Assembly: GCA_027460535.1 (NCBI GenBank)
Contig: JAPZAR010000034.1
Location: 1-32,000 of the forward strand
Reading direction: 5' to 3'
Source: Candidatus Methanoperedens sp.
GTDB taxonomy: Archaea; Halobacteriota; Methanosarcinia; Methanosarcinales; Methanoperedenaceae
Length of the DNA: 32,000 nucleotides
Every line of letters begins with the position of its first letter. Position 1 is the first letter of the stretch. A program made the translations under genes and the position numbers. Below the pieces are notes generated by a model. It did no database searches, had not been told where the DNA came from, and saw nothing but the letters and a program-made list of their open reading frames with translations. Below, piece after piece: positions 2,773-31,250 of this stretch.

Positions 2773-3123
2773 TCATCTGCCGATTTTCATTTCAAAAAGA
2801 AGTGCCTGAGTATTATTTTTCAAATCTGGAAGCTTGTTTGTTGTTACATCCCATACGATCTCAAAATTTATTCCAAAATATTCATGCGTTAGAATATCTC
2901 TTAATCCAGCTATCTTTTTCCATTCGATGTCCTGTTTTTTATGCTTAATCTCATCAGGAATATTCTTGACAGCCTCACCAATTACTTCCAGATTTTTCAA
3001 AACGCCATCCTGTATTAATTCATCTTTAAGGAAGTCCTCATAAGACATATTCTGGGTATATTTTTCAATTTTACGGATCGCCTCAAGAATATCTTTAAGA
3101 TATGCCTCATACGTGCGCTGCAT
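2773..3123 (-). CDS. hepT: HepT (DUF86) HEPN-family toxin
   Basis: 116 aa. The R-x4-H-x-Y motif is present as RDILTHEY. It overlaps the upstream MntA gene by 17 nt. Confidence 0.9.
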   Translation of the reverse strand: MQRTYEAYLKDILEAIRKIEKYTQNMSYEDFLKDELIQDGVLKNLEVIGEAVKNIPDEIKHKKQDIEWKKIAGLRDILTHEYFGINFEIVWDVTTNKLPDLKNNTQALLFEMKIGR

Positions 3124-3427
3124 ATTTCACGCTCCCGAGAATATATGGCTTTAAATCCGGTTTGATTGCATCATGCATCACGAGATCAACCTTGCATTTG
3201 AACAGGTCTTCTAAGAAGAATTTTAAGTCCATGTAATTGTCAAATGTTGTTTTGCCTATTTCAAATTCTACAAGGATGTCTATATCACTTGTGGGTTTTT
3301 GTTCGTTTTTGATGTATGAACCGAATAATCCGATTCTTTTTACGCCGTATTTTTTAATTTTGGCTTTATTTTCTTCGAGTTTTGATAAGATATTTTTATA
3401 AGTTAACATTTTAATTTCCATTTCCAT
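3107..3427 (-). CDS. mntA: MntA minimal nucleotidyltransferase antitoxin
   Basis: 106 aa. The stretch GLFGSYIKNEQKPTSDIDILVEF carries the G-S-x(n)-D-x-D MNT motif. It is paired with HepT. Confidence 0.9.
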   Translation of the reverse strand: MEMEIKMLTYKNILSKLEENKAKIKKYGVKRIGLFGSYIKNEQKPTSDIDILVEFEIGKTTFDNYMDLKFFLEDLFKCKVDLVMHDAIKPDLKPYILGSVKYAAHV

Positions 3428-8166: not shown

Positions 8167-9342
8167 ATGGTCACAGATTTAAAAGCATTTGCAAAAACAG
8201 CAAAACCATCTGTTGCTGTAGTCGGGCTTGGTGGTGCTGGTTGTAATATTACGACATGGATCGCAGAAAAAGGAATAACTGGCGGCAGGATTATTGCAGC
8301 CAATACGGATGTTAACCATCTTTATGTCCAGAAAGCAGACAAATTGGTTCTTCTTGGAGAAAAACTGTGCAAAGGACATGGATGCGGGGGCTTTCCCGAA
8401 ATGGGAGCCCAGGCGACGAGAGAAAATGTTAATGAATTAAAAGCTGAGCTAGAAGGTGCAAATCTTGTATTCCTTGTAGCAGGATTGGGCGGTGGTACAG
8501 GTACAGGCGCCATGCCGGTAGCTGCTGAAATCACACGCGAACTGGGGGCTCTGACAATAGGATGCGTGACAATTCCATTCACTATTGAGATGGCAAGAAG
8601 AGAGAAAGCAAGAGAAGCCATTGAACTTCTGGCCAAATCCTGCGATTCGGTAGTTATAATAGATAACTCGAAATTAAGAGAAGTAGCAGGAAACCTCCCA
8701 TTAAAAGAGGCACTCAATGTTGCGAACGCACTTGTGGGAGCTTTTGTAAAGAATCTTACGGACACAATCACACAGCCAAGCCTTGTTAACCTTGACTATG
8801 CAGATCTTCGTGCAGTAATGGAACGTGGCGGGGTATCATCTATAGGGATAGGCGAAGCAGACGGGCAGAACAGGGTTGAGAAAGCAGTTGCGCAGGCTAT
8901 CAGCACACCGTTGCTTGATGTCCAGGATATATCCGAAAGCTATGGCGTGCTAGTGCACATCGTGGGCGGCGAAGACCTGACATTGGAAGAGGTCGCAGTC
9001 GCGGGCGAACTGATAATGGACAAAGTGCCCAATACCAAGAGGATCATCTGGGGCGCGAAAGTGGACAACACGCTGACAGGTGCGGTCAGGGTAATGGCAG
9101 TGCTGACAGGCGTTGAGAGCCCGTTCGTATCGGGAAAAGTGAAGGAAGTTGTGGTGGAGGCGCCGCCGGAACCCGAGATAGTAAGGCCAAAGGTGGAGCC
9201 TCCAAGGCCGAAGCCGGTTGTTAAAGTGGAACCACCGAAAGCGGAGACAAAGAAGGAAGAGAAGGGCACCAATTATATCTGGATCGTAGTTATCCTGATA
9301 ATAATATTGATCCTGCTCTGGTATTTCACGAGGACCGGTTGA
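8167..9342 (+). CDS. ftsZ: FtsZ-family GTPase with a Pro/Lys/Glu-rich linker and a C-terminal transmembrane helix
   Basis: 391 aa. GAAGGAGG RBS at 8153-8160. It carries VVGLGGAGCN, the tubulin signature GGGTGTG and the T7-loop NLDYADLRAVM. The tail is EAPPEPEIVRPKVEPPRPKPVVKVEPPKAETKKEEKG followed by YIWIVVILIIILILLWYF (nt 9274-9327). Confidence 0.9.
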   Translation: MVTDLKAFAKTAKPSVAVVGLGGAGCNITTWIAEKGITGGRIIAANTDVNHLYVQKADKLVLLGEKLCKGHGCGGFPEMGAQATRENVNELKAELEGANLVFLVAGLGGGTGTGAMPVAAEITRELGALTIGCVTIPFTIEMARREKAREAIELLAKSCDSVVIIDNSKLREVAGNLPLKEALNVANALVGAFVKNLTDTITQPSLVNLDYADLRAVMERGGVSSIGIGEADGQNRVEKAVAQAISTPLLDVQDISESYGVLVHIVGGEDLTLEEVAVAGELIMDKVPNTKRIIWGAKVDNTLTGAVRVMAVLTGVESPFVSGKVKEVVVEAPPEPEIVRPKVEPPRPKPVVKVEPPKAETKKEEKGTNYIWIVVILIIILILLWYFTRTG

Positions 9343-15688: not shown

Positions 15689-15773
15689 GTTCAATAATTG
15701 ACTTTCAAACGTTAAATTGTTTTCTTCCAATAAAATCACGGCTTCATAGAACAGGAGGTACTAAAAATATTAT

Positions 15774-15847
15774 GGGATAGCGCGGATTTGAACCGCGGTC
15801 TAAGCGTCCCAAACGCTCAAGGATGGACCAGGCTACCCTACTATCCC
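15774..15847 (-). tRNA. tRNA-Pro (anticodon UGG)
   Basis: The reverse complement is GGGATAGTAGGGTAGCCTGGTCCATCCTTGAGCGTTTGGGACGCTTAGACCGCGGTTCAAATCCGCGCTATCCC. It has a 7-bp acceptor stem, an AGCCTGGTCC D-loop, anticodon loop TT-TGG-GA and T-arm CGCGG-TTCAAAT-CCGCG. CCA is not encoded. Confidence 0.92.
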
Positions 15848-15903: not shown

Positions 15904-16149
15904 TTATTCACGACATTTTTCTTTCATGCCCTGCTTTATGCCCCACGATGCCCACATCAAACCCAGTATGGCTATCACTGCCAGAAGCACGACCAGGATA
16001 ACGGCTATCTTTTGAAAAAGGCTGAATGAAGAAGCGAAGAATGCAACATAAATTATTGCAAAGATCAACCCGCCGAATAAAACTACTATGGATACAGCAA
16101 CTCTTGGCGCAAGTCCCGGCGGCACTTCCCGGCTTTCATTTTGGTTCAT
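15904..16149 (-). CDS. Small two-TM membrane protein
   Basis: 81 aa. Strong GGAGGTG RBS about 9 nt upstream of the ATG. It has two long hydrophobic helices. Confidence 0.6.
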   Translation of the reverse strand: MNQNESREVPPGLAPRVAVSIVVLFGGLIFAIIYVAFFASSFSLFQKIAVILVVLLAVIAILGLMWASWGIKQGMKEKCRE

Positions 16150-16364
16150 ATATTATGCACCTCCTGCCAATCGGATTTTTATGCAATATTATCCACCACT
16201 CTTGTACAATGAACATATTTCTAAAACAGTTTCGCTCCCCAATAAGATTATATGACGGCTGAAGGAGTAATAGTTTTCGATGTAGTTAGGGACCTTTCAA
16301 ATATACAACAAACCGCAGATAAACGCAGATTTGTTGCTCTTCAGAAGCGGGAGATGCATATTAC

Positions 16365-16395
16365 AAAAAATTATATGCAATTTTCAGTAATATAA
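16365..16395 (-). terminator. Conserved 3' module with an oligo-T run, copy 1
   Basis: It starts directly after the stop of ORF 16396..16887. The minus strand reads ttatattactgaAAATTGCATATAATTTTTT. It aligns in the same register with 17154..17184, with about 25 of 31 identities by my count. Confidence 0.5.
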
Positions 16396-16887
16396 TCAGG
16401 ACTCTGACGATGGCCTTTTTTCCCTCAGGCTTGCAATTGATTTTTCTATATTGGCTTTATATTCGTCTAAATAACGGACTTTGTTGATTGTACTTAAGGC
16501 TCTAATGCTTCTAATAAAACCTAACAAATAAAGTAATGTACTCATTATACCGATTACAAAGTTAAGAATTATTACAGAATACGAATTTAACATACCGATA
16601 TAACTATATCCCAAAGTTGTTAATGCGCCAGCAAGAGAGAAAAATACCAAAACCTGCAAAATTGAAGTCGAAACCAAATATGATAACTCTTGGGAATTCG
16701 AATATTTAGATATTTCTTGAAGCTCTGACTCAAGTTCTTCTATTCTTGCTGTTGCACTACTTCTTGACCATGCAGCAATCCAATTTTTGACGATGGGTGT
16801 AACCAGGTTTCCAATTACAGATAGCAAAACCGCACCTAAGAGGGATATTGCCCAGTTAATTTGGTTTAATAAATCGAACAAAGCCAT
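16396..16887 (-). CDS. Hypothetical small multi-TM protein with a coiled-coil segment
   Basis: 163 aa. GAGGAAGAG lies upstream of the ATG. It has an N-terminal TM helix, then ARIEELESELQEISKY, two or three further TM helices and a charged helical tail. It sits in an AT-rich islet. Confidence 0.6.
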   Translation of the reverse strand: MALFDLLNQINWAISLLGAVLLSVIGNLVTPIVKNWIAAWSRSSATARIEELESELQEISKYSNSQELSYLVSTSILQVLVFFSLAGALTTLGYSYIGMLNSYSVIILNFVIGIMSTLLYLLGFIRSIRALSTINKVRYLDEYKANIEKSIASLREKRPSSES

Positions 16888-16950
16888 AATCTCTTCCTCG
16901 ACATATGTATTACTTAAATTTCATATTAATAAACTTTTGGTTTCGATAAC

Positions 16951-17096
16951 GAAGGAAAAGGAAAAAAGAAGAATGTACCTGCTTTTTATTGCAGTGCGCC
17001 CTATAGAAACGGTCTATTTCTGCAGATAGGTAATAGGATGCTTTGCATAATAAAATCCAACTGAGACCCTTTATGCGAAGAAGGAAAAGGAAAAAA
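16951..17096. repeat. Perfect 17-nt direct repeat GAAGGAAAAGGAAAAAA (16951-16967 and 17080-17096), with a 10-nt inverted repeat spanning its second copy
   Basis: Read directly from the sequence. The inverted-repeat arms are GAAACGGTCT (17006-17015) and AGACCGTTTC (17099-17108). On the minus strand the direct repeats read TTTTTTCCTTTTCCTTC. Confidence 0.8.
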
Positions 17097-17153
17097 TGAG
17101 ACCGTTTCAAATCGTGTGGTGAATTGAGACTATCTTTAAGAAATGAATATTAA

Positions 17154-17184
17154 AAAAAATTATACGCAATTTCAAATAATAGAG
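17154..17184 (-). terminator. Conserved 3' module with an oligo-T run, copy 2
   Basis: It starts directly after the stop of ORF 17185..17985. The minus strand reads ctctattatttgAAATTGCGTATAATTTTTTTT. It is homologous to 16365..16395. Confidence 0.5.
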
Positions 17185-17985
17185 CTACTTCTTTATAGAT
17201 GGAAATTTAAATTTTAATTGATTTATAATTGCATCATATGATACTTCATACTCTGTTCTATAATCCGCTGGGTGAGGAATTTTTCGATTAATAATAGGAA
17301 TCTCAATATGAATATCAGTTTTTTCATTGTATGTATATTGATTAAAATAAGTTATATCTGTTATTGGTAATTTTAGAACATTTCCTATAAATAAACAGAA
17401 ACCAAAGGGATAGTGAATAAATTCAGAAAGTAAATAAAATCCTCCATTTTCCCATAGGCCGACAATTCCAGAATTGAATAAAATGAGTTCAGTAGTAAGA
17501 TACATATACACTGAAAAATCAAATGGAAAATTCTGTGAATCTTTTTGTAAAAGATAATCTTTCAAATCAGGATGAGCCAGTTGAAAATTATTTCCATTTC
17601 TTGAGCAAAATATCGCAATTACTTGCTTAAAGAAACGAAGAGGATGTACATCCTGTAGTATTATTTCAATAGGTTTTGGTTTTCCAAACATCCGATTATC
17701 TGATAAATTACCCCGCTTCATATTATTCGACAAAATCATAGTCCATTTTTTGTATTCTTCGCCATATAGATGACCTGTAATGTTATTACAGCTTGAACAC
17801 AGACTATAATTTCCTACACCTTTTTGCTTTAGCTTACCTTTTTTAAAATATTTTCCTTCTGTGAGCAAAGGAAGCGCTTGAAACTCTTGTGACCGAAAAA
17901 AATTGAATGCCTTCTGCGGAGGCGTATGTTCAAATGATAGTTTACTTTGTTTTCCACAAATACAACATGTACCATGTTTGCTCAT
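17185..17985 (-). CDS. Hypothetical protein with an N-terminal HNH-like (HNH_5-like) zinc-ribbon motif
   Basis: 266 aa. The stretch CCICGKQSKLSFEHTPPQKAF ... LCSSCNNITG follows the CxxC..EH..P...CxxCN pattern of beta-beta-alpha-Me nucleases. The spacing between halves is longer than I remember for the family. The C-terminal roughly 170 aa are unrecognised. Confidence 0.6.
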   Translation of the reverse strand: MSKHGTCCICGKQSKLSFEHTPPQKAFNFFRSQEFQALPLLTEGKYFKKGKLKQKGVGNYSLCSSCNNITGHLYGEEYKKWTMILSNNMKRGNLSDNRMFGKPKPIEIILQDVHPLRFFKQVIAIFCSRNGNNFQLAHPDLKDYLLQKDSQNFPFDFSVYMYLTTELILFNSGIVGLWENGGFYLLSEFIHYPFGFCLFIGNVLKLPITDITYFNQYTYNEKTDIHIEIPIINRKIPHPADYRTEYEVSYDAIINQLKFKFPSIKK

Positions 17986-18252
17986 AGATAATTATCTCAT
18001 TGACTTTGATATTCCTTGATGATAACAACCAACACTAATTGAAACGTCTCTATTCAAGAAATCGTTTCAATACATTTTGGTGAATACATAGCGTTTTTCG
18101 CATGATGTTTGGCCTGTGTGACAATATAGCTATAATAGCGATTTCTATCTTTTCAGGTTTCATTTTATCAATTCATGCTGAGGAGCTGATAAGTATAGCA
18201 TTCCTAGCCGTTGAAGCACCGGTAAATATCTGAACCCTCATGCAGAAAAATA

Positions 18253-25370: not shown

Positions 25371-25718
25371 TCAGAGGTTCTTATTTCTCCCAACCAGTAT
25401 TTTTATCTCTTTTTTCAATTCAGGAATATCTTTTCTTACGGTGTCCCAAACAGCATCCAAATCCACACCAAGATAATCATGGACCAGCTTATCTCTCATC
25501 CCAGCCATTTTCCTCCATGGTATATCCGGATATTTTTCTCTCATCTCGGTGGATACTCTTTTTGTGGCTTCCCCTACTATTTCAATCTGCCTTACGACAC
25601 CATCTTGAACCAGATTATTATCCATAAAATCGTCATAGTCCAGGTCTATGGTATATTCCTCGATTCGGGATATAGCATCCAGAATGTGTCTTAAATAAAC
25701 AATATCATCTTTCTTCAT
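25371..25718 (-). CDS. hepT: HepT (DUF86) HEPN-family toxin, second copy
   Basis: 115 aa. The R-x4-H-x-Y motif is present as RDKLVHDY. It overlaps the upstream MntA gene by 4 nt. Confidence 0.9.
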   Translation of the reverse strand: MKKDDIVYLRHILDAISRIEEYTIDLDYDDFMDNNLVQDGVVRQIEIVGEATKRVSTEMREKYPDIPWRKMAGMRDKLVHDYLGVDLDAVWDTVRKDIPELKKEIKILVGRNKNL

Positions 25719-25999
25719 TCGTAAATTACCTTCATCTCCTTTTTTATCCTGTCAATCAAGTAAGGACTAATGGACTTTTCAGTCAGCAAATCGACTTTCA
25801 TACCAAGTGCATCGGAGAGATCCTGCTCTATTCCCACGAGATCGAGCAGACTTTTCCTCTCTGAAAATTCGACAAGGATATCTATGTCGCTTTTTGGCCT
25901 CTCTTCGTCTGTTGCGTAAGAGCCAAAGATGGCTACCTTTTTTACGCCGTATTTTTTAATGAGAGAGATGATCTTTTTAAAGAGGGCTTCTTTGTTCAT
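25715..25999 (-). CDS. mntA: MntA minimal nucleotidyltransferase antitoxin, second copy
   Basis: 94 aa. The stretch AIFGSYATDEERPKSDIDILVEF carries the MNT motif. Confidence 0.9.
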   Translation of the reverse strand: MNKEALFKKIISLIKKYGVKKVAIFGSYATDEERPKSDIDILVEFSERKSLLDLVGIEQDLSDALGMKVDLLTEKSISPYLIDRIKKEMKVIYE

Positions 26000-26181
26000 T
26001 TTCCTTTACCGCCCTACAATGTTATCCATAAATTTTCATATCTGTTTCTTCAACTATTTAATAGTTAAATCGAATACTTCGCAATCAAGATTGGCATCGG
26101 AAGATGCGCCTATGTCTTTTTTCTTTAAGCCTCCTAATGAATAAGTATTCGGCTTCCTTTTCAATTGATTGGCATTGGCCA

Positions 26182-28461
26182 TTAAATTTTCTTCTCCCTT
26201 GCCGCCTTCAGCATCAGCTGCATCTCAGTCCTGGCTACCATCTCGCGCACAGCCTCCACTGCATCGATATTTGCAGAAATGCTCGTTATCCCAAGCTCCA
26301 CAAGTCTCTTAGCCACCTTGGGATTGCTCCCTGCCTGCCCGCAGATGCTGGTCTTTACGCCCGCCTTGTTGCACTCCACAATAACAAGCTCGATGAGTTT
26401 CATAATAGCAGGATGCATCTCATTATACAGATGCGCAACGTGCTCGTTGTTCCTGTCCACAGCAAGTGTGTATTGCGTGAGGTCGTTTGTGCCAAAGCTC
26501 ACGAAATCAAGACCTTCAGCTATGAACTGGTCGATTATAAGCGCTGCTGCAGGTATCTCCACCATTATACCAATATCGGTCTTGTTGAAATCTATCCCTC
26601 TTTCGCTCATGAATACCTTGGCCCTCCGCAGCTCCGAAGGATGCTGAACAAGGGGGATCATAATACCCATATTATTATAGCCGCGTTTGATCAATTCCTT
26701 GAATGCTCTCACCTCAAGCTCGAAGTGTTCGGTATCAATAAGATCGCGCCTGATGCCGCGGTAACCCAGCATAGGATTAGGCTCGATGGGTTCGCCTTCT
26801 CCGCCTTCCATTGCCCTGAACTCATCGGTGGGTGCGTCAAGTGTTCTTACCCAGACAGGTTTTGGATAGAATGCATCCACCACGGTCTGGATACGTGAGA
26901 CAAGTTCGTTGACATATTCATCGGCTTTCCCTTCCTTGATATACTGTTTGGGGTGCTTTGGAAGCCCGAGTATCATGTGCTCAATGCGCAGGAGCCCAAC
27001 GCCGTCAGCCTGAGTCTCCACAGCACGCTGGGTAGCTTCGGGAATGGAGACGTTCACTTTTACTTCTGTTGCGGTGATAGGTTTTTGTCTGGCAAAAGAT
27101 ACCGCCGTCTTCTCAGGCTGTGTAACATGTGCGGCAATCTCCTTCTTGCCTTCGAACACAAGCCCTTTCTCCCCATCCACCGTTATTTTCATGCCATCTG
27201 ACAATAACTGAGTTGCCTTTCGTGTTCCAACTACTGCGGGACAGCCCAGTTCCCGCGATACTATAGCTGCATGGCATGTCATGCCACCTTCATCTGTTAC
27301 GATCGCTGCGGCGCGTTTCATAGCCGGGACCATATCAGGCGTGGTCATGACAGCAACGAGAATGTCGCCCTCCTTGACCTTTCCAAGCTCGCTTGCATCA
27401 GAAACGAGTTTCGCCTCGCCATAAGCGATTCCCGGAGAAGCTCCCAACCCTTCAAGTATGGCCTGGGTTGCCAGTTTTTCTTTCGCTTCTTTTTTCTTCT
27501 TTATAGTGGTTATTGGCCTTGACTGGAGCATGTAGATTTCCTTGTTCTTTATCGCCCATTCCACATCCTGGGGGATGCCGTAAAGGTCCTCCACGACATC
27601 TCCGAGTTCAACGAGTTTCAATATCTCATCATCATCAAGCACCTTTGCGTTTTTCTTCTCTTCAGGCACAGGGAGCTCCACTGTTTTATCGGTTCTTGGG
27701 TCTCTGATGTGCATTATGTTTTTTATGGCAATTTTGCGCTCCAGGATTTTCTTATTGACTTTATCAATAACGTAATAGTCCGGGGAAACAGAGCCAGAGA
27801 CCACGCTCTCGCCGAGCCCCCATGCGCCTTCGATAATCGTCAGCGGTTCTCCAGTGGAAGGATGCGATGAGAACATTACCCCTGCTTTTTCTGCGTCGAC
27901 CATGAGCTGGATTACGGCACAGAGGTTCACTTTTCTGTGGTCAAAACCCTGTTTTACACGGTAATATATCGCCCGCGCCCCATATAGTGAAGCCCAGCAT
28001 TTCTTGACCGCTTCAACTACATTCGTTTCGCCTTTGATATTAAGAAACGTATCCTGCTGACCCGCGAAACTTGCATCGGGCAGGTCCTCAGCTGTGGCAC
28101 TTGACCTCACTGCCACAAAAACCTCGCTCCCTTCCCGTTTGCAAAGTTCCCTGTATCTTGCCCTGATGGTTTTTTCAATATCGGGAGGTATTTTTGCTCC
28201 CATAATTATTTTTTTTGCATTTTTCTCGGCTTCTCTCAGTATGGCAGCATCATCAACATTTACTTCGAGTGATTTGAAAAGTTCTTCATTGACCCCATTT
28301 TCATCGATGAATCGCCTGAAAGCCTGCGCTGTTACTGCAAATCCCCGCGGGACAGGAAGCTCAGCATGTAACATTTCCCCTAAACTTGCACCTTTGCCGC
28401 CCACTATCGCTATATCCTCTTTCCCAACCTCTTCGAGCCATACAACTGTGTCATTTACCAT
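26182..28461 (-). CDS. ppsA: Phosphoenolpyruvate synthase (pyruvate, water dikinase)
   Basis: 759 aa. It has an N-terminal ATP-grasp domain (VGGKGASLGEM), a phosphohistidine swivel domain (GGMTCHAAIVSRELG) and a C-terminal PEP-utilising TIM barrel (SFGTNDLTQY). Confidence 0.97.
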   Translation of the reverse strand: MVNDTVVWLEEVGKEDIAIVGGKGASLGEMLHAELPVPRGFAVTAQAFRRFIDENGVNEELFKSLEVNVDDAAILREAEKNAKKIIMGAKIPPDIEKTIRARYRELCKREGSEVFVAVRSSATAEDLPDASFAGQQDTFLNIKGETNVVEAVKKCWASLYGARAIYYRVKQGFDHRKVNLCAVIQLMVDAEKAGVMFSSHPSTGEPLTIIEGAWGLGESVVSGSVSPDYYVIDKVNKKILERKIAIKNIMHIRDPRTDKTVELPVPEEKKNAKVLDDDEILKLVELGDVVEDLYGIPQDVEWAIKNKEIYMLQSRPITTIKKKKEAKEKLATQAILEGLGASPGIAYGEAKLVSDASELGKVKEGDILVAVMTTPDMVPAMKRAAAIVTDEGGMTCHAAIVSRELGCPAVVGTRKATQLLSDGMKITVDGEKGLVFEGKKEIAAHVTQPEKTAVSFARQKPITATEVKVNVSIPEATQRAVETQADGVGLLRIEHMILGLPKHPKQYIKEGKADEYVNELVSRIQTVVDAFYPKPVWVRTLDAPTDEFRAMEGGEGEPIEPNPMLGYRGIRRDLIDTEHFELEVRAFKELIKRGYNNMGIMIPLVQHPSELRRAKVFMSERGIDFNKTDIGIMVEIPAAALIIDQFIAEGLDFVSFGTNDLTQYTLAVDRNNEHVAHLYNEMHPAIMKLIELVIVECNKAGVKTSICGQAGSNPKVAKRLVELGITSISANIDAVEAVREMVARTEMQLMLKAAREKKI

Positions 28462-28894
28462 ATTTTTTCTCCTTTAACGACTTTTGAATTTTATTGAGTT
28501 TTTTATCGTAACTTTCAATTGCTATTTTTACCAAGAAAGGCAGTTTTTCACGGGAAAAGCCAAATTCCTTTACAATATTTTCAAGAAAATAAACGTCGAT
28601 CTCCTTATGTTGTGCCCTCTCTACCCTGATTGCCTCGATCAAAGCCACTGTTTTAATAAAATTTTTCACAAACTCAAAGGTTGGTGTCACACTACCGTTT
28701 TCAATCCGCGATATAGATTCGCGGCGGAGATTCATTAATTCTCCAAGTTCTACCTGAGTCATATCATATCTCATCCTGTATTCACGTATCACGTCGCCTG
28801 AGTCAGAGTTCAGGATGATCTCAGATGCGATCTCCTTTTCAAAAGAAACCAGCCACTCCGGGATGTATAAAATGGTTTTAGATGCAGCCTTCAA
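28451..28894 (-). CDS. XRE-family helix-turn-helix protein
   Basis: 147 aa. MTQVELGELMNLRRESISRIENG is a Cro/C1-type HTH. Its 3' end overlaps the ppsA start by 11 nt. Confidence 0.75.
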   Translation of the reverse strand: MKAASKTILYIPEWLVSFEKEIASEIILNSDSGDVIREYRMRYDMTQVELGELMNLRRESISRIENGSVTPTFEFVKNFIKTVALIEAIRVERAQHKEIDVYFLENIVKEFGFSREKLPFLVKIAIESYDKKLNKIQKSLKEKKYGK

Positions 28895-29007: not shown

Positions 29008-29619
29008 TCACATCTTTTTACGATTGCTCTTATGAACTTGAGAACTACCCTTCGACAATCTAATATTTTCATCCATGATCCCCCTGAATATCAGGTCCTT
29101 CTTAACTGCCTTCCTTGCTTCATCGAGTTGCTGTTCAAGCTCCTGTAGTTTTTCCCCCAGCGTTTCCATTTCAATATCTTTCTTTTCCAGTTCCTGTTCA
29201 AGATTTTTGATAGTAACTTCTTGCCGCTGTATTGTGTAAGCCATCTTTCCCTTTTTGCTTCGGTTCCCTTCAAGATACCCTGCCCTTGGCTTTTTCTTTT
29301 TTGTATCAGCAGGCTCGGAAACAGCTTTTCCTGGACGAGCGTTCAGGAAAGGTTTGTTTATATGCCTTCCTGATATCCTTTCTATAAAGAACATAGACTC
29401 TCCATGCTCTTGCGCTGAAAGCGTCCAGGTGGGTCCATTGTAGCGTTTTTCCTTATTCGCAAGTTCGAATAATTTTTTGGCAACGTCCCCGCTTATCCAG
29501 CCAAGGCTCTCATAGTAGTCAAGCAATCTTTGGAGGTTGTTATGGCCTACCCTCTCCAGCATAAAGAGAAGCCATTTACGCTGTAGGTATTTTGTGGAGT
29601 CGTCAAGTTCTTGCAGCAT
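29008..29619 (-). CDS. ArlD/E (FlaD/E)-domain protein with a basic linker and C-terminal coiled coil
   Basis: 203 aa. KWLLFMLERVGHNNLQRLLDYYESLGWISGDVAKKL ... EHGESMFFIERI matches my memory of the Arch_fla_DE domain. A KKKKPR linker follows, then a heptad-rich segment (TIKNLEQELEKKDIEMETLGEKLQELEQQLDEARKAV). Its ATG directly follows the stop of the actin-like gene. Confidence 0.65.
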   Translation of the reverse strand: MLQELDDSTKYLQRKWLLFMLERVGHNNLQRLLDYYESLGWISGDVAKKLFELANKEKRYNGPTWTLSAQEHGESMFFIERISGRHINKPFLNARPGKAVSEPADTKKKKPRAGYLEGNRSKKGKMAYTIQRQEVTIKNLEQELEKKDIEMETLGEKLQELEQQLDEARKAVKKDLIFRGIMDENIRLSKGSSQVHKSNRKKM

Positions 29620-30669
29620 TTACGTGGTTTGCCAGAACTCTTTCGGCATATCGATTGCCATCTTTAATGCACCAGCCGCGCCTCCGAACACCGGGTCCCG
29701 GGTTTTGAGGACCTTGCATCCCCCGATCAATTCCAGTTCATGTTCCAGGACAGTATCAAGATTTCTTATCTGGCTTCCTCCCCCTGCAATATATAAATTT
29801 GAGCGCAGCTCATCCTGGAATTCAGGATCGTAGGTTGATATAAGCCTGGAAATCCCGCTCACGATATCAGGCAATATGGATTCGCATGCCCTCCTCATCT
29901 CCTGTGTGATGGAAAGCTTCAGCACTGAGGCGGCTCTCGGCACTTCCACTATGATCTCCTCATCAGGATTGCCAACAAAAGAGTACTTCTCCTTCCACAA
30001 CCTGGCCATTTCCCGGGTGACCCTGAGCTTTGTATGGTTTTTTGTTACAAGCTTAACAAATTCCCTGTCTATGAAGTCGCCAGCTTTGGTGCTGCTTATC
30101 TGATCTTCCGGGTTCGGTCGCGCGCCATGCACCCTGCATAGATCCGTGGTAGCTGCCCCGATATCCACAATCAATGAATGTTCAAATTTTCCTAAATTGT
30201 ACGCAACACAGAGCGGTTCGCTCGCCACCATTATCCCATCAAAGAAATCTTTAGCCATTTCGGGTATGATTTTTTTATTTTGTACGCTTGCCTGGGCAGG
30301 GACTCCTATGATGGCATATTTTCTTACATCCCTATCCGCATTGACCGATCTGAGTACGAATTCGACTAATCCTTTAGCCGCCTCGATGCTCTTTCTCTGG
30401 ATTTTCAAAACCCCTCTCTCGATCGGCCTGTAAAGTTTGAGGGCATCTCTGTGCTTAAGTGCTTCTTCCCCGAAAAGGTGCTCCTTCTTTAAAAACTTAG
30501 ATGCCACCGCATCCTTTGGAGCGCCCACAATGCTCAGAATGCTGTTCTTCTTGCCGTCGCTCGTAGAGATAGCAGTGTGATTTGTACCCAGATCGATCCC
30601 TATGAATAGGTTCTTTTTCTCATTCACCCCTGATACATTCGATCTCCGGATTTTTTTCTTATATGCCAA
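29620..30669 (-). CDS. Actin-fold ATPase, MamK-like actin homologue
   Basis: The five actin/Hsp70-fold motifs are present: LFIGIDLGTNHT, IIGVPAQAS, LIVDIGAATTDL, LYIAGGGSQIRNL and DPVFGGAAGAL. Block-wise resemblance to MamK is described in the findings. I prefer the TTG start at 30669, with GAGGA 7 nt upstream. GTG 30627 is an alternative. The track's 30810 start adds an implausible AT-rich extension. Confidence 0.85.
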   Translation of the reverse strand: MAYKKKIRRSNVSGVNEKKNLFIGIDLGTNHTAISTSDGKKNSILSIVGAPKDAVASKFLKKEHLFGEEALKHRDALKLYRPIERGVLKIQRKSIEAAKGLVEFVLRSVNADRDVRKYAIIGVPAQASVQNKKIIPEMAKDFFDGIMVASEPLCVAYNLGKFEHSLIVDIGAATTDLCRVHGARPNPEDQISSTKAGDFIDREFVKLVTKNHTKLRVTREMARLWKEKYSFVGNPDEEIIVEVPRAASVLKLSITQEMRRACESILPDIVSGISRLISTYDPEFQDELRSNLYIAGGGSQIRNLDTVLEHELELIGGCKVLKTRDPVFGGAAGALKMAIDMPKEFWQTT

Positions 30670-30716
30670 ATTGTATTCCTCATTATTATAATGAACTAAG
30701 AAAAGTACACTCTGCT

Positions 30717-30727
30717 TAAATATATAG
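30717..30727 (-). promoter_or_regulatory. Candidate TATA box (CTATATATTTA on minus strand) for the actin-like operon
   Basis: It lies about 50 nt upstream of the proposed TTG start, in an AT-rich divergent intergenic region shared with the gene at 30876. Confidence 0.3.
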
Positions 30728-30875
30728 TTTACGTGACATAAGTCTCTTGCTGGATAATTTGAATCCTCAAACCCGGTTGGGCAGTTATAGACCGGAATAT
30801 TCATGAACAATTCCGAAATCTATATTAAGCAGGACTAAAAAACAGTATGCAGGATAGATAAGAAGTGCATTTCCA

Positions 30876-31250
30876 TTGAACACATATACCTTGTACAGAT
30901 ACATAGAATTTCTAATGTTTGCATTATATTTGATTTTCATTTTCTATTCTATTCAAATCTGGTTCTTATGGAAGGATATAGATAAAAACAAATTAACATT
31001 AAATACCTTTGTCAGTGATTCATTTTTTAAGAAAAATTGCCTTTATGTCTTCCTTTTCAGTATATTTTTTATGATCCATGAATTTTTTGAAGGGATAAGT
31101 CTCGCGGATTCCGTGGTATATTTTGAGTTTTTTGATATGCTTGCAGTTTTCGGGTTATTATTGTTCGCACATCAGTGGTATACGGTGTTAAAAGCATGCG
31201 CAAGTAAAAAATCTCTGCCAAAAGAGTTGATTGACTCTATCAAGCAGTAA
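30876..31250 (+). CDS. Hypothetical multi-TM membrane protein
   Basis: 124 aa with a non-ATG (TTG) start in the track. It has three or four hydrophobic helices and is very AT-rich. It is divergent from the actin-like operon. Start and reality are uncertain. Confidence 0.45.
   Translation: MNTYTLYRYIEFLMFALYLIFIFYSIQIWFLWKDIDKNKLTLNTFVSDSFFKKNCLYVFLFSIFFMIHEFFEGISLADSVVYFEFFDMLAVFGLLLFAHQWYTVLKACASKKSLPKELIDSIKQ

What the first reader, a model, noticed from the sequence alone, without database searches (positions are those of the whole stretch)
29008..30810. MamK-like actin gene abutting an ArlD/E(FlaD/E)-domain coiled-coil gene: a candidate undescribed archaeal cytoskeletal module
Seen in sequence:
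- ORF 29620..30669 has all five actin-fold nucleotide-binding motifs.
- Its TAA stop (29620-29622) is followed directly by the ATG (29619) of a 203-aa ORF, so the two almost certainly form an operon.

From memory of Magnetospirillum MamK, similarity runs block by block across the whole length. Window sequence first, MamK second:
- LFIGIDLGTNHTAISTSDGKK vs LFLGIDLGTSHTAVMSSRGKK
- SIVGAPKD vs SVVGYPKD
- AIIGVPAQASVQNK vs AVIGVPARASAANK
- MVASEPLCVAY vs VVSEPFMVGY
- LIVDIGAATTDLCRVHGARPNPEDQISSTKAGDF vs IIVDIGAGTTDICALKGTVPGPEDQVTLTKAGNY
- KEKYSFVG vs KEQFSFVG
- ACESILPDIV vs ACEALMPDII
- IAGGGSQIRNL vs FAGGGSRIRGL
- DPVFGGAAGALKMA vs DPTFDGCRGALRLA
This looks closer to MamK than to MreB, ParM or crenactin.

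The partner protein has three parts. The first is an N-terminal domain matching the archaellum ArlD/E (FlaD/E) signature. The second is a Lys-rich linker, and the third is a coiled coil of about 50 aa.

Established knowledge: MamK organises magnetosome chains in bacteria. ArlC/D/E are archaellum-motor accessory proteins that dock the CheF/CheY switch.

No archaellum genes (arlB/F/G/H/I/J), chemotaxis genes or magnetosome genes occur in this window.

Inference: an ArlD/E domain has been recruited as adaptor, nucleator or anchor for an actin-like filament in an archaeon. I am not aware of a description of this pairing.
Basis: partly seen in the sequence, partly recalled or inferred. Interest (0 to 1): 0.78.

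Follow-up and report, generated by a model that had tools for sequence, protein, structure and literature searches.

The report
Archaeal MamK-like actin with ArlD/E-headed tether
A methane-oxidising archaeon (Candidatus Methanoperedens) carries a conserved two-gene unit: an actin-like filament protein of the bacterial MamK type and a coiled-coil partner whose head is a domain otherwise known only from the archaeal swimming motor, a pairing I found no description of and whose function is untested.

Summary
On the minus strand, 29620-30669 encodes a 349-aa actin-fold protein. It matches NCBIfam MamK at E 1e-113 and 379.5 bits (cut-off 400), and MamK is its best solved-structure match (TM 0.88/0.95). 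MreB, salactin and ParM models score far lower. Its TAA stop abuts the ATG of a 203-aa protein (29008-29619). That protein has an N-terminal Arch_fla_DE domain (63 bits, cut-off 21), a disordered linker and an ~89-residue helix.

The window is core chromosome of Candidatus Methanoperedens, with no archaellum, chemotaxis or magnetosome genes nearby. The pair is adjacent in every Methanoperedens and ANME-2/Methanosarcinales locus recovered. In ANME-2 the partner grows to 1,657 aa but keeps both ends. One related lineage lacks the ArlD/E head yet keeps an ungapped ~60-aa C-terminal module. These actins form a clade with 100% bootstrap support inside the MamK family.

My reading is an actin filament plus a two-ended coiled-coil tether. 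The C-terminal module probably binds the filament, and the ArlD/E head probably binds an archaellum-base-type partner or another cargo. I found no description in the literature searched. I rate it a new variant of a known kind, moderately to highly interesting.

The parts
29620..30669 (-). MamK-family actin-like ATPase gene (349 aa, TTG start). The catalytic Glu (SEP motif, MamK E143 equivalent) and the phosphate-2 Asp (VDIG, MamK D161 equivalent) are present. The phosphate-2 loop reads DIGAATTD.
   Evidence: - NCBIfam MamK NF040964: E 1.2e-113, 379.5 bits.
- Pfam MreB_Mbl/Actin.
- PDB MamK 5LJW: E 8e-79 over the full length.
- AF2 model pLDDT 88; Foldseek top hit MamK 5LJV, TM 0.88/0.95, rmsd 1.7 A.
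- Start codon fixed by alignment.
30670..30735 (-). Putative 5' region of the operon. It holds a GAGG Shine-Dalgarno-like motif (about 30678-30681, 7 nt before the TTG) and an A/T-rich TATA-like box (CTATATATTTAA, about 30716-30727). Inference only.
   Evidence: Read directly from the sequence. There is no experimental or comparative support. The sigma-70 scan does not apply to archaea.
29617..29622 (-). Stop/start junction TAA|ATG with 0-nt spacing, implying co-transcription and probably translational coupling.
   Evidence: The spacing is 0-3 nt in seven Methanoperedens loci and 29-55 nt in ANME-2.
29008..29619 (-). Partner gene (203 aa): ArlD/E-headed coiled-coil protein.
   Evidence: - Pfam PF04659.
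- 100% identical to a hypothetical protein of Candidatus Methanoperedens sp. (P0001).
- AF2 model pLDDT 78.5.
29368..29589 (-). Arch_fla_DE (ArlD/E, FlaD/E) domain, residues 11-84. Predicted as a four-helix globular head (helices 7-24, 26-39, 44-55, 69-82).
   Evidence: - PF04659: 63.2 bits against a cut-off of 21.
- AF2.
- The signature W-L-x-F-M-L-E-R-V-G-x-N-N-L...Y-Y-x-x-I-G-W-I...W-T-L-S-x-E-H...F-I-E is shared with canonical FlaD proteins.
- No solved-structure neighbour.
29281..29367 (-). Disordered linker, residues 85-113. It is Lys-rich here only. It ends in the conserved P-R-x-G-Y-L-E motif, which is repeated in ANME-2 partners.
   Evidence: pLDDT is below 50 for residues 92-96 and 101-110.
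29050..29238 (-). Conserved C-terminal coiled-coil module, residues 128-190: (H/Q)R-x-(E/Q)-V-T-I-x-N-L-x-x-E-L-E ... 53 residues, ungapped ... N-(I/L/V)-(R/K)-(L/I). It lies within a single long helix (114-202).
   Evidence: - Invariant R, V, I, N, L, L, N with no gaps across Methanoperedens, ANME-2 and L007.
- pLDDT 85-95.
- A family-built HMM hits only ORFs downstream of the actin gene.
30876..31250 (+). Small predicted membrane protein (124 aa), divergent from the actin gene. It is a conserved neighbour in some Methanoperedens genomes. Membership of the module is doubtful.
   Evidence: It is 52-54% identical at the same position in L004, L005 and L013, and absent from ANME-2 loci. It has no Pfam family.

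Best explanation
This is a chromosomal two-gene cytoskeletal operon of Methanoperedenaceae and ANME-2 archaea.

Gene 1 encodes a MamK-family actin-like ATPase that polymerises into filaments.

Gene 2 is translationally coupled to it. It encodes a dimeric coiled-coil tether with two functional ends:
- A length-invariant ~60-residue C-terminal module, which I propose attaches the tether to the actin filament. Known parallels are ParR to ParM, and the arcadin-2 C-terminus to crenactin.
- A pair of N-terminal ArlD/E heads on flexible linkers, which I propose dock onto the partner this domain normally contacts. That would be the cytoplasmic base of the archaellum (ArlH / switch complex / CheF) or a polar structure built from it.

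The filament would then position, anchor or space that machinery. The length of the coiled coil would set the reach: about 13 nm in Methanoperedens and about 200 nm in ANME-2.

Shown here:
- family identity of both proteins;
- operon structure;
- conservation of the pair;
- conservation of both ends of the partner while its length varies eight-fold.

Inferred, not shown:
- polymerisation;
- which end binds actin;
- what the ArlD/E head binds.
For: Identity of the actin:
- MamK HMM 379.5 bits against 184 or less for any other family.
- MamK is the best PDB sequence match and the best fold match.
- The catalytic E and D residues are conserved.
- A non-magnetotactic MamK-like protein forms filamentous structures when expressed in E. 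coli and in Magnetospirillum (bioRxiv 10.1101/817700).

Identity of the partner:
- PF04659 scores above its cut-off in the Methanoperedens partner and in the ANME-2/Methanosarcinales partners.

Linkage of the two genes:
- The stop and start codons abut.
- The pair is adjacent in all 5 Methanoperedens species representatives and in all 4 ANME-2/Methanosarcinales loci. The surrounding synteny differs in L011 and in ANME-2.
- The actins of partner-bearing genomes form a clade with 100% bootstrap support.

Two-ended tether:
- The ANME-2 partner is 1,657 aa. It has the same ArlD/E head and the same C-terminal module, separated by about 1,300 residues of coiled coil.
- The C-terminal module is ungapped and has invariant residues.
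- L007 keeps the module without the head.

Rate of change:
- The partner evolves faster than the actin (47-52% against 66-72% identity), as adaptors typically do.

The ArlD/E domain and the archaellum base:
- Methanoperedenaceae possess and regulate archaellum genes (PMC13046784).
- A cytoskeletal protein, CetZ1, is already known to affect assembly of the archaellum-base marker ArlD1 in Haloferax (PMC13644373).
- Salactin, described by its authors as closest to MamK, grows from the cell poles (PMC10746226).
Against: - No interaction was tested.
- The pair is never found inside an arl or che cluster. Canonical relatives of the domain sit in FlaC+D/E - ArlH - ArlI - ArlJ operons.
- The domain order is inverted relative to canonical ArlD, where the domain lies at the C-terminal end in nearly all of the best 150 hits.
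- The L007 lineage dispenses with the ArlD/E head. The Thermoplasmata relatives have a different head altogether. The head is therefore exchangeable and need not have kept its archaellar partner.
- I did not establish whether ANME-2 genomes carrying the pair have archaella.
- The window actin scores just below NCBI's MamK cut-off. It also has Ala for Gly in the phosphate-2 loop.
Confidence: 0.4

Rival explanations
1. The architecture is the same (actin filament plus two-ended coiled-coil tether), but the ArlD/E head has been exapted for a non-archaellar cargo. Candidates are storage granules (PHA or polyphosphate), chromosomes, or membrane-bound respiratory or electron-transfer complexes. The module would then be an organelle- or DNA-positioning system in the manner of MamK-MamJ or ParM-ParR.
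For: - MamK's characterised role is organelle positioning.
- Salactin, described as closest to MamK, affects DNA partitioning (PMC10746226).
- The pair lies outside arl/che clusters.
- The head domain is exchangeable between lineages.
- In L004/L005 a multihaem-cytochrome-like gene is inserted just after the pair.
- Methanoperedenaceae use intracellular PHA (PMC13046784).
Against: - No cargo gene is conserved next to the pair.
- The only partners reported for the ArlD/E proteins in the papers read here are archaellar or chemotactic.
- No DNA-binding fold was detected in the partner. Foldseek's best hit had E 1.8.
- The downstream HTH gene belongs with PEP synthase and is absent from ANME-2 loci.
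Confidence: 0.3
2. The partner is not a cargo adaptor. It regulates or organises the filament itself, as a nucleator, capper, bundler or cross-linker. Comparable cases are arcadin-2 for crenactin and the coiled-coil Mad proteins of deep-branching magnetotactic bacteria. The ArlD/E head would then serve as an oligomerisation domain or an actin-binding domain.
For: - A dimeric coiled coil with two identical ends is a natural cross-linker.
- ANME-2 partners carry tandem short motifs (...ELDSFFGSLKKKP) in the disordered region. These loosely recall tandem WH2-type monomer-binding motifs.
- Coiled-coil proteins cooperate with actin-like proteins in Desulfovibrio magneticus (PMC12748827, listed).
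Against: - Keeping two different conserved ends across an eight-fold length range suggests two different binding partners rather than self-association.
- The WH2 resemblance is loose, with different spacing, and is absent from Methanoperedens.
- No test was possible.
Confidence: 0.2
3. The actin is an ordinary MreB-type cell-shape determinant, as many database records name it ('rod shape-determining protein'), and the neighbouring gene is unrelated.
For: The best Pfam hit is MreB_Mbl (4.5e-18). Source annotations of many homologues say MreB.
Against: - MreB-specific models score 44-56 bits against cut-offs of 293-366, whereas MamK scores 379.5.
- PDB MreB gives E 9e-11 against MamK 8e-79.
- Archaea of this group lack the peptidoglycan elongasome that MreB guides (established knowledge).
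- The adjacency is conserved across two families.
Confidence: 0.04
4. The pair is a mobile-element (plasmid, virus or Borg) ParM-like segregation cassette that happens to sit in the chromosome.
For: The operon has the same outline as ParMRC or AlfAB: an actin gene followed by a small adaptor gene.
Against: - The only match among 72,556 plasmid records is one 23%-identical MreB-type gene, and there is none among 50,697 phage records.
- GC content is normal.
- Housekeeping synteny (RimK/RLAN ... PEP synthase, FBPase, Hef, FtsZ, SRP54) is conserved between species.
- No repeat or centromere-like array was looked for. This is a gap.
Confidence: 0.03

Closest known systems
MamK (magnetosome actin of magnetotactic bacteria; NCBIfam NF040964; PDB 5LJV/5LJW/5JYG)
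   Same: - Same family by full-length HMM (379.5 bits) and by sequence (38.6% identity over 332 positions).
- Same predicted fold (TM 0.88/0.95).
- ATPase residues are conserved.
- It probably forms filaments that position something through an accessory protein.
   Different: - The host is an archaeon.
- There is no magnetosome gene cluster.
- The score is just under NCBI's family cut-off.
- It forms a separate clade with 100% bootstrap support together with the ANME-2 proteins.
- The accessory protein is unrelated to MamJ, MamY or McaA/B.
ArlD / ArlCE (FlaD/FlaE) archaellum switch-complex proteins
   Same: It shares the Arch_fla_DE domain with a very similar sequence signature, and it also combines that domain with a coiled coil.
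   Different: - The domain is at the N-terminus followed by the coiled coil. Canonical ArlD has a FlaC-type coiled coil first and the domain at the C-terminal end.
- The gene is not in an arl operon.
- It is always paired with an actin gene.
- The full-length family is tiny: about six 50%-identity clusters among 1.84 billion representatives.
Actin-plus-adaptor operons: ParM-ParR-parC, AlfA-AlfB, AlpC-AlpA, crenactin-arcadin-2
   Same: - The gene order is an actin-like ATPase followed by a small, fast-evolving partner.
- The partner is expected to bind the filament through a short conserved C-terminal element.
   Different: - It is chromosomal and is not a plasmid or phage cassette.
- The partner is a coiled-coil tether with an archaellum-type head rather than a DNA-binding protein.
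- No centromere has been identified.
Salactin and volactin (haloarchaeal actin homologues)
   Same: - They are archaeal actins of the Methanotecta.
- Its authors describe salactin as closest to MamK.
- Salactin filaments grow from the cell poles.
   Different: - The window protein scores only 29 bits on the salactin model (cut-off 400).
- Salactin has poor synteny and no reported partner gene (PMC10746226).
Coiled-coil/actin network of deep-branching magnetotactic bacteria (Mad proteins with MamK/Mad28)
   Same: Coiled-coil proteins work together with MamK-type actins to organise a structure.
   Different: No sequence relationship to the partner described here was detected, and the host is bacterial and magnetotactic.

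Membership tests
MamK family actin-like protein | Full-length match to the family HMM (NCBIfam NF040964) at or above the curated cut-off of 400 bits | tested here: inconclusive
   It scores 379.5 bits, E 1.2e-113, covering profile positions 1-328 of 335. That is 20 bits under the cut-off, but twice the score of the next family (BeeR, 184). A 68%-identical homologue (P0064) is named 'MamK family actin-like protein' by NCBI.
MamK family actin-like protein | Closest solved structure, by sequence and by fold, is MamK | tested here: met
   - phmmer against PDB: 5LJW E 8.2e-79, BeeR 2.4e-31, MreB 8.6e-11.
- Foldseek: 5LJV_A E 4e-40, TM 0.88/0.95, rmsd 1.7 A.
MamK family actin-like protein | Conserved nucleotide-binding and hydrolysis residues (MamK E143 and D161 equivalents, five actin-fold motifs) | tested here: met
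   The SEP Glu and VDIG Asp align with MamK E143 and D161. The motifs are invariant in the family alignment. One deviation: Ala for Gly in DIGA(G->A)TTD.
MamK family actin-like protein | Encoded within a magnetosome gene cluster (mamAB-type operon) of a magnetotactic organism | tested here: not met
   No mam genes were found in the window or in the flanks of syntenic contigs. Many bacterial family members, such as those of Planctomycetota, also lack this context.
MamK family actin-like protein | Forms ATP-dependent double-stranded filaments | not testable with these tools
   This needs biochemistry or imaging. Position A278 (the non-polymerising A278D mutant) is Asp here, but that column varies across the whole family, so it is not informative.
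ArlD/ArlE (FlaD/FlaE) archaellum switch proteins | Arch_fla_DE domain (PF04659) above the gathering score | tested here: met
   It scores 63.2 bits against a cut-off of 21, residues 11-84. ANME-2/Methanosarcinales partners score 37-41 bits.
ArlD/ArlE (FlaD/FlaE) archaellum switch proteins | Gene lies in the archaellum (arl/fla) operon next to arlH-arlI-arlJ | tested here: not met
   No arl genes lie within +-10 kb. A canonical relative (P0154) does sit in a FlaC+D/E - KaiC-like - T2SSE - T2SSF operon.
ArlD/ArlE (FlaD/FlaE) archaellum switch proteins | Canonical ArlD architecture: FlaC-type coiled coil at the N-terminus and the D/E domain at the C-terminal end | tested here: not met
   Here the domain is N-terminal and the coiled coil C-terminal. 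FlaC_arch scores only 16.4 bits against a cut-off of 27.8. In nearly all of the best 150 hits of the exhaustive search that lie outside this family, the domain ends at or near the protein's C-terminus.
ArlD/ArlE (FlaD/FlaE) archaellum switch proteins | Binds ArlH / the archaellum motor and CheF | not testable with these tools
   This is known for Haloferax ArlCDE (PMC7534055). Nothing could be computed here.
MreB (rod-shape-determining actin) | Match to MreB-specific models above the cut-off | tested here: not met
   PRK13927 scores 56.3 bits against 293, and TIGR00904 scores 44.2 against 365.75.
Salactin | Match to NF053533 above the cut-off | tested here: not met
   It scores 29.4 bits against 400.
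ParM-type plasmid/phage segregation cassette | Located on a mobile replicon, with relatives on plasmids or phages | tested here: not met
   The context is core chromosome with conserved synteny. tblastn found only one 23%-identical MreB-type plasmid hit and no phage hit.
Actin-plus-adaptor operon (functional class, not a homology family) | Conserved adjacency of an actin-like gene with a faster-evolving partner gene on the same strand | tested here: met
   The spacing is 0-3 nt in Methanoperedens and 29-55 nt in ANME-2. Identity to the window is 66-72% for the actin and 47-52% for the partner.
Actin-plus-adaptor operon (functional class, not a homology family) | Partner binds the filament directly | not testable with these tools

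The most novel reading that the evidence does not exclude
This would be the first case of an archaeal actin cytoskeleton physically coupled to the motility or taxis apparatus. A MamK-type filament would be tethered through ArlD/E heads to archaellum motor bases (ArlH/CheF), setting the position, spacing or inheritance of archaella. The tether length would be tuned from about 13 nm in Methanoperedens to about 200 nm in ANME-2. A further possibility concerns the tandem EGY...ELxSFFxSLKK motifs of the ANME-2 tethers: they may be prokaryotic analogues of WH2-type actin-monomer-binding repeats, which would make the partner a nucleator as well.
Probability: 0.2. Interest if true: 0.85.

Novelty: new variant of a known kind. 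Interest (0 to 1): 0.62.

Why it matters
Very few archaeal actin systems have a known partner protein; crenactin with the arcadins is the main example. None of the papers I read links an actin to the archaellum domain family.

This module offers three things:
- a defined, conserved two-protein system in environmentally important methane oxidisers, for which enrichment cultures exist;
- a natural length series of one tether (200 to 1,657 residues) with both ends conserved, which is an unusually clean handle for asking what each end binds;
- a possible route to the still unclear function of the many MamK-family actins in organisms that make no magnetosomes.

If the ArlD/E head does dock on the archaellum base, it would show how an archaeon places its motility machinery. 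If it does not, it would show that the domain is a portable interaction module with uses outside motility.

Tried and rejected
- **Complex prediction.** A read-through DNA reference failed because of the stop codon. No interface could be modelled.
- **Fold search of the partner model against PDB.** Nothing was significant; the best E was 1.8. The ArlD/E head has no detectable solved relative.
- **Profile of the C-terminal module against the 5.8-billion-protein index.** It returned only nine proteins, mostly fragments, two of them named as Methanoperedens or ANME-2. It did not even return the full-length family, so it says little about wider distribution.
- **MamK A278D, the non-polymerising mutant.** The window has Asp at that position, but the column varies (A/D/E/Q/N/T) across the family, including magnetotactic MamKs. 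It is not diagnostic.
- **A link to type IV filament ATPases.** T2SSE/PilB3-like and MinD/ParA-like genes lie near the pair in L015. T2SSE and KaiC-like genes lie near it in L007, and a KaiC-like gene in L006. None is conserved across loci, so I treat them as chance neighbours.
- **The downstream HTH_3 gene as a possible ParR-like DNA adaptor.** It overlaps PEP synthase, travels with it, and is absent from ANME-2 loci. Rejected.
- **The sigma-70 promoter and intrinsic-terminator scan.** It does not apply to an archaeon.
- **All-archaea monophyly of the MamK-like actins.** Bootstrap support was only 26%. The tree is neighbour-joining, without an outgroup, and says nothing firm about the direction of transfer between bacteria and archaea.
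- **Literature searches.** The term pairs MamK + Methanoperedens and Methanoperedens + MreB returned no paper. MamK + Methanosarcinales returned three unrelated papers. No listed paper contained PF04659 or Arch_fla_DE. The large ANME comparative-genomics paper and the 2026 Methanoperedenaceae review contain no text mention of actin, MreB, cytoskeleton or FlaD.


Full report
**1. What is in the sequence**

On the minus strand there are two abutting ORFs. The upstream one is open from 30810, but its real start is the TTG at 30669.
- The initiator Met of ten homologues aligns with that codon.
- NCBI's own gene call on the source contig is 349 aa.
- A GAGG motif lies 7 nt upstream.

The TAA stop (29620-29622) is followed with no spacer by the ATG of a 203-aa ORF (29008-29619).

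The window is core chromosome of Candidatus Methanoperedens. The 203-aa protein is 100% identical to a hypothetical protein of a Methanoperedens MAG. The rest of the window encodes HisI, AcnX, UbiD/UbiX, SRP54, FtsZ, LplA, tRNA-Pro, Hef, FBPase and PEP synthase. The GC content of the locus is ordinary.

**2. The actin**

Family-specific models rank it clearly:

| NCBIfam model | Bits | Cut-off | Note |
|---|---|---|---|
| MamK | 379.5 | 400 | E 1.2e-113, full length |
| BeeR | 184 | 530 | |
| MreB (two models) | 56 and 44 | 293 and 366 | |
| Salactin | 29 | 400 | |

Other evidence agrees.
- Among solved structures, the best sequence match is Magnetospirillum MamK: E 8e-79, 38.6% identity over 332 positions. 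BeeR (2e-31) and MreB (9e-11) follow.
- An AlphaFold model (pLDDT 88) superposes on the MamK filament subunit 5LJV with TM 0.88/0.95 and rmsd 1.7 A.
- The hydrolytic Glu and the phosphate-2 Asp are conserved.
- One oddity is Ala for the otherwise invariant Gly in the phosphate-2 loop.
- There are no relatives on phages, and only one 23%-identical MreB-type gene among plasmid records.

The score sits just below NCBI's curated cut-off, so I describe it as a MamK-family (MamK-like) actin rather than an orthologue of magnetosomal MamK. It lacks the magnetosome context.

**3. The partner**

- Pfam Arch_fla_DE is significant: 63 bits against a cut-off of 21, residues 11-84.
- The sequence signature is shared almost word for word with canonical FlaD proteins.
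- AlphaFold (pLDDT 78.5) gives a four-helix head (7-82), a disordered linker (about 88-112) and one long helix (114-202).
- Foldseek finds no solved relative.

I ran an exhaustive HMMER search of 1.84 billion representative proteins with the family profile.
- It returned 401 hits.
- Only about six clusters are full-length relatives.
- In nearly all the other listed hits, the domain sits at the C-terminal end of the protein. That is the canonical ArlD arrangement.
- One such relative lies in a FlaC+D/E - ArlH - ArlI - ArlJ operon.

The architecture here is therefore inverted, the family is rare, and the gene lies outside any archaellum cluster.

**4. Conservation of the pair**

The scan of one genome per GTDB species, followed by HMM and BLAST analysis of the loci, gave these results.
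- The actin is followed by the partner in all five Methanoperedens species representatives, with 0-3 nt spacing.
- The same holds in all four ANME-2/Methanosarcinales loci, with 29-55 nt spacing.
- Metagenome contigs agree.
- Within Methanoperedens the wider synteny is usually RLAN/RimK - [small membrane ORF] - actin - partner - [insert] - HTH - PEP synthase.
- L011 and the ANME-2 loci place the pair in other surroundings. The pair is therefore the conserved unit.

Identity to the window:

| Gene | Identity to window |
|---|---|
| PEP synthase | 87-89% |
| Actin | 66-72% |
| Partner | 47-52% |

A bootstrapped neighbour-joining tree gives 100% support to the clade Methanoperedens + ANME-2 + L007. 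Monophyly of all archaeal sequences gets only 26%.

The next-closest sequences are from Planctomycetota (44-47%), Thermoplasmata (44%) and Poseidoniales. Magnetotactic Nitrospirota and Desulfamplus are at about 43%, and Magnetospirillum at 37-38%.

**5. Anatomy of the partner across lineages**

This is the most informative result.
- In ANME-2 the partner is a giant. L017 is 1,657 aa with no assembly gaps.
- It has the same ArlD/E head (41 bits).
- A disordered stretch of about 230 residues follows, carrying 2-3 copies of the motif ...DLVPVxEGYExFxELxSFFxSLKK....
- About 1,300 residues of coiled coil come next.
- The same C-terminal module closes the protein.

Aligned across Methanoperedens, ANME-2 and L007, that module is ungapped. 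It has invariant R, V, I, N, L, L and, exactly 53 residues after the R, an invariant N.

In L007 the actin is 54% identical to the window's. Its 206-aa partner has no ArlD/E domain but keeps the module.

In the Thermoplasmata-type loci L008 and L020, the actin is followed by a ~615-aa protein. It has an unrelated head, a coiled coil and a weakly similar tail (...DLFxKIxxDNRxL...).

No comparable downstream partner was seen in bacterial loci.

Two conserved ends separated by a spacer that varies eight-fold in length is the signature of a tether with two different binding sites. Of the two ends, the C-terminal module tracks the actin clade most faithfully. It is therefore the better candidate for the actin-binding end. 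The head is exchangeable and is the better candidate for the cargo or anchor end.

**6. How it probably works**

The actin polymerises. This is inferred from family membership, intact catalytic residues, and the fact that a non-magnetotactic MamK-like protein forms filamentous structures in heterologous hosts (bioRxiv 10.1101/817700).

The partner is made in step with the actin through the abutting stop and start codons. It would dimerise through its long helix, attach to the filament by its C-terminal module, and present two ArlD/E heads on flexible linkers.

The only documented partners of this domain family are the archaellum motor (via ArlH) and CheF (PMC7534055, PMC9126983). Several points make docking to the archaellum base or a polar structure my first choice (confidence about 0.4 for the whole chain):
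- Methanoperedenaceae have and regulate archaellum genes (PMC13046784).
- Salactin, the related actin family, grows from the cell poles (PMC10746226).
- The tubulin-like CetZ1 already links a cytoskeletal protein to assembly of the archaellum-base marker ArlD1 (PMC13644373).

The main rival (0.3) keeps the architecture but gives the head a new cargo, such as granules, DNA or membrane complexes. This fits the gene's position outside arl clusters and the exchangeable head.

A third reading (0.2) makes the partner a regulator, nucleator or cross-linker of the filament.

An ordinary MreB, a mobile ParM-type cassette and a chance adjacency are each contradicted by tests done here.

**7. Novelty**

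NCBI's pipeline already labels some Methanoperedens homologues 'MamK family actin-like protein'. The salactin paper notes MamK-related actins in Methanotecta. The presence of MamK-like actins in archaea is therefore not new.

I found no paper that mentions the following:
- this clade;
- its obligatory partner;
- an actin-ArlD/E pairing;
- the giant ANME-2 tether.

The library holds only open-access papers and preprints, so absence there is not proof.

I class this as a new variant of a known kind, the actin-like filament plus adaptor. It has an unusual adaptor built from an archaellum domain.

**8. Limits**

Everything functional is inference from sequence and context.
- No interaction could be modelled.
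- The tree is neighbour-joining without an outgroup.
- The taxonomy of L007 and L008 is unknown.
- Whether ANME-2 carriers of the pair have archaella was not established.
- Centromere-like repeats were not searched for.

Noticed in passing
L017:2691-7664, L015:7095-10562, L006:1321-5255 (ANME-2 partner genes): The ANME-2 partners are giant coiled-coil proteins (1,657 aa in L017). Between the ArlD/E head and the coiled coil they carry 2-3 tandem short motifs, '(E/D)DLVPVxEGYExF(D/N)EL(D/G)SFFxSLKK(K/T)P'. Methanoperedens keeps a single 'PREGYLEAH'. An amphipathic stretch followed by LKK loosely recalls WH2 actin-monomer-binding motifs.
   Followed up: partly
window 30151-30153 (codon of residue 173 of the actin): The phosphate-2 loop reads DIGAATTD, whereas all ten aligned homologues have DIGAGTTD. 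The same Ala is present in three assemblies of this organism (L001-L003). Its effect on nucleotide binding is unknown.
   Followed up: partly
window 30876-31250 (+): This 124-aa predicted membrane protein is divergent from the actin gene. It is 52-54% identical at the same position in L004, L005 and L013, but NCBI does not call it on this contig. It has no Pfam family and is absent from ANME-2 loci.
   Followed up: partly
L007:7076-8917 and L008:1806-3644 / L020:7215-9071: Other archaeal MamK-like actins are followed by different coiled-coil partners. L007 has a 206-aa coiled coil without an ArlD/E head but with the same C-terminal module, then a second coiled-coil protein and a membrane protein. 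The Thermoplasmata-type loci have a ~615-aa protein with an unrelated head and a weakly similar tail.
   Followed up: partly
L015:893-4494; L007:9886-12967; L006:6317-7081: Type IV filament-type ATPases (T2SSE/PilB3-like), a MinD/ParA-like ATPase and KaiC-like (ArlH-like) ATPases lie within 1-5 kb of the actin pair in three different lineages. None of them is conserved across loci.
   Followed up: partly
L004:11674-13032 and L005:9625-10983: A 452-aa protein with faint multihaem-cytochrome Pfam hits is inserted between the partner gene and the HTH/PEP-synthase genes in one Methanoperedens lineage. L013 also has an insert of about 1.5 kb at that position.
   Followed up: no
window 16001-18000: This is a low-GC patch (0.33 against 0.40-0.48 elsewhere). 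It holds two ORFs without any Pfam family (16396-16887 and 17185-17985, both minus strand), just beside tRNA-Pro (15773-15847). It may be a small integrated element.
   Followed up: no
window 2773-3427 and 25371-26000: There are two separate HepT-like / MNT-type nucleotidyltransferase (toxin-antitoxin type) gene pairs in one 32-kb window.
   Followed up: no
window 8167-9342 (+): An FtsZ gene (Tubulin plus FtsZ_C domains) lies about 20 kb from the actin operon, next to SRP54. There is no sign of linkage to the actin pair.
   Followed up: no
window 28451-28894 (-): This is an HTH_3 (XRE-type) protein whose 3' end overlaps the start of PEP synthase. It is conserved with PEP synthase in Methanoperedens (70-74% identity). 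Its start is called differently by different pipelines (113 or 147 aa).
   Followed up: partly
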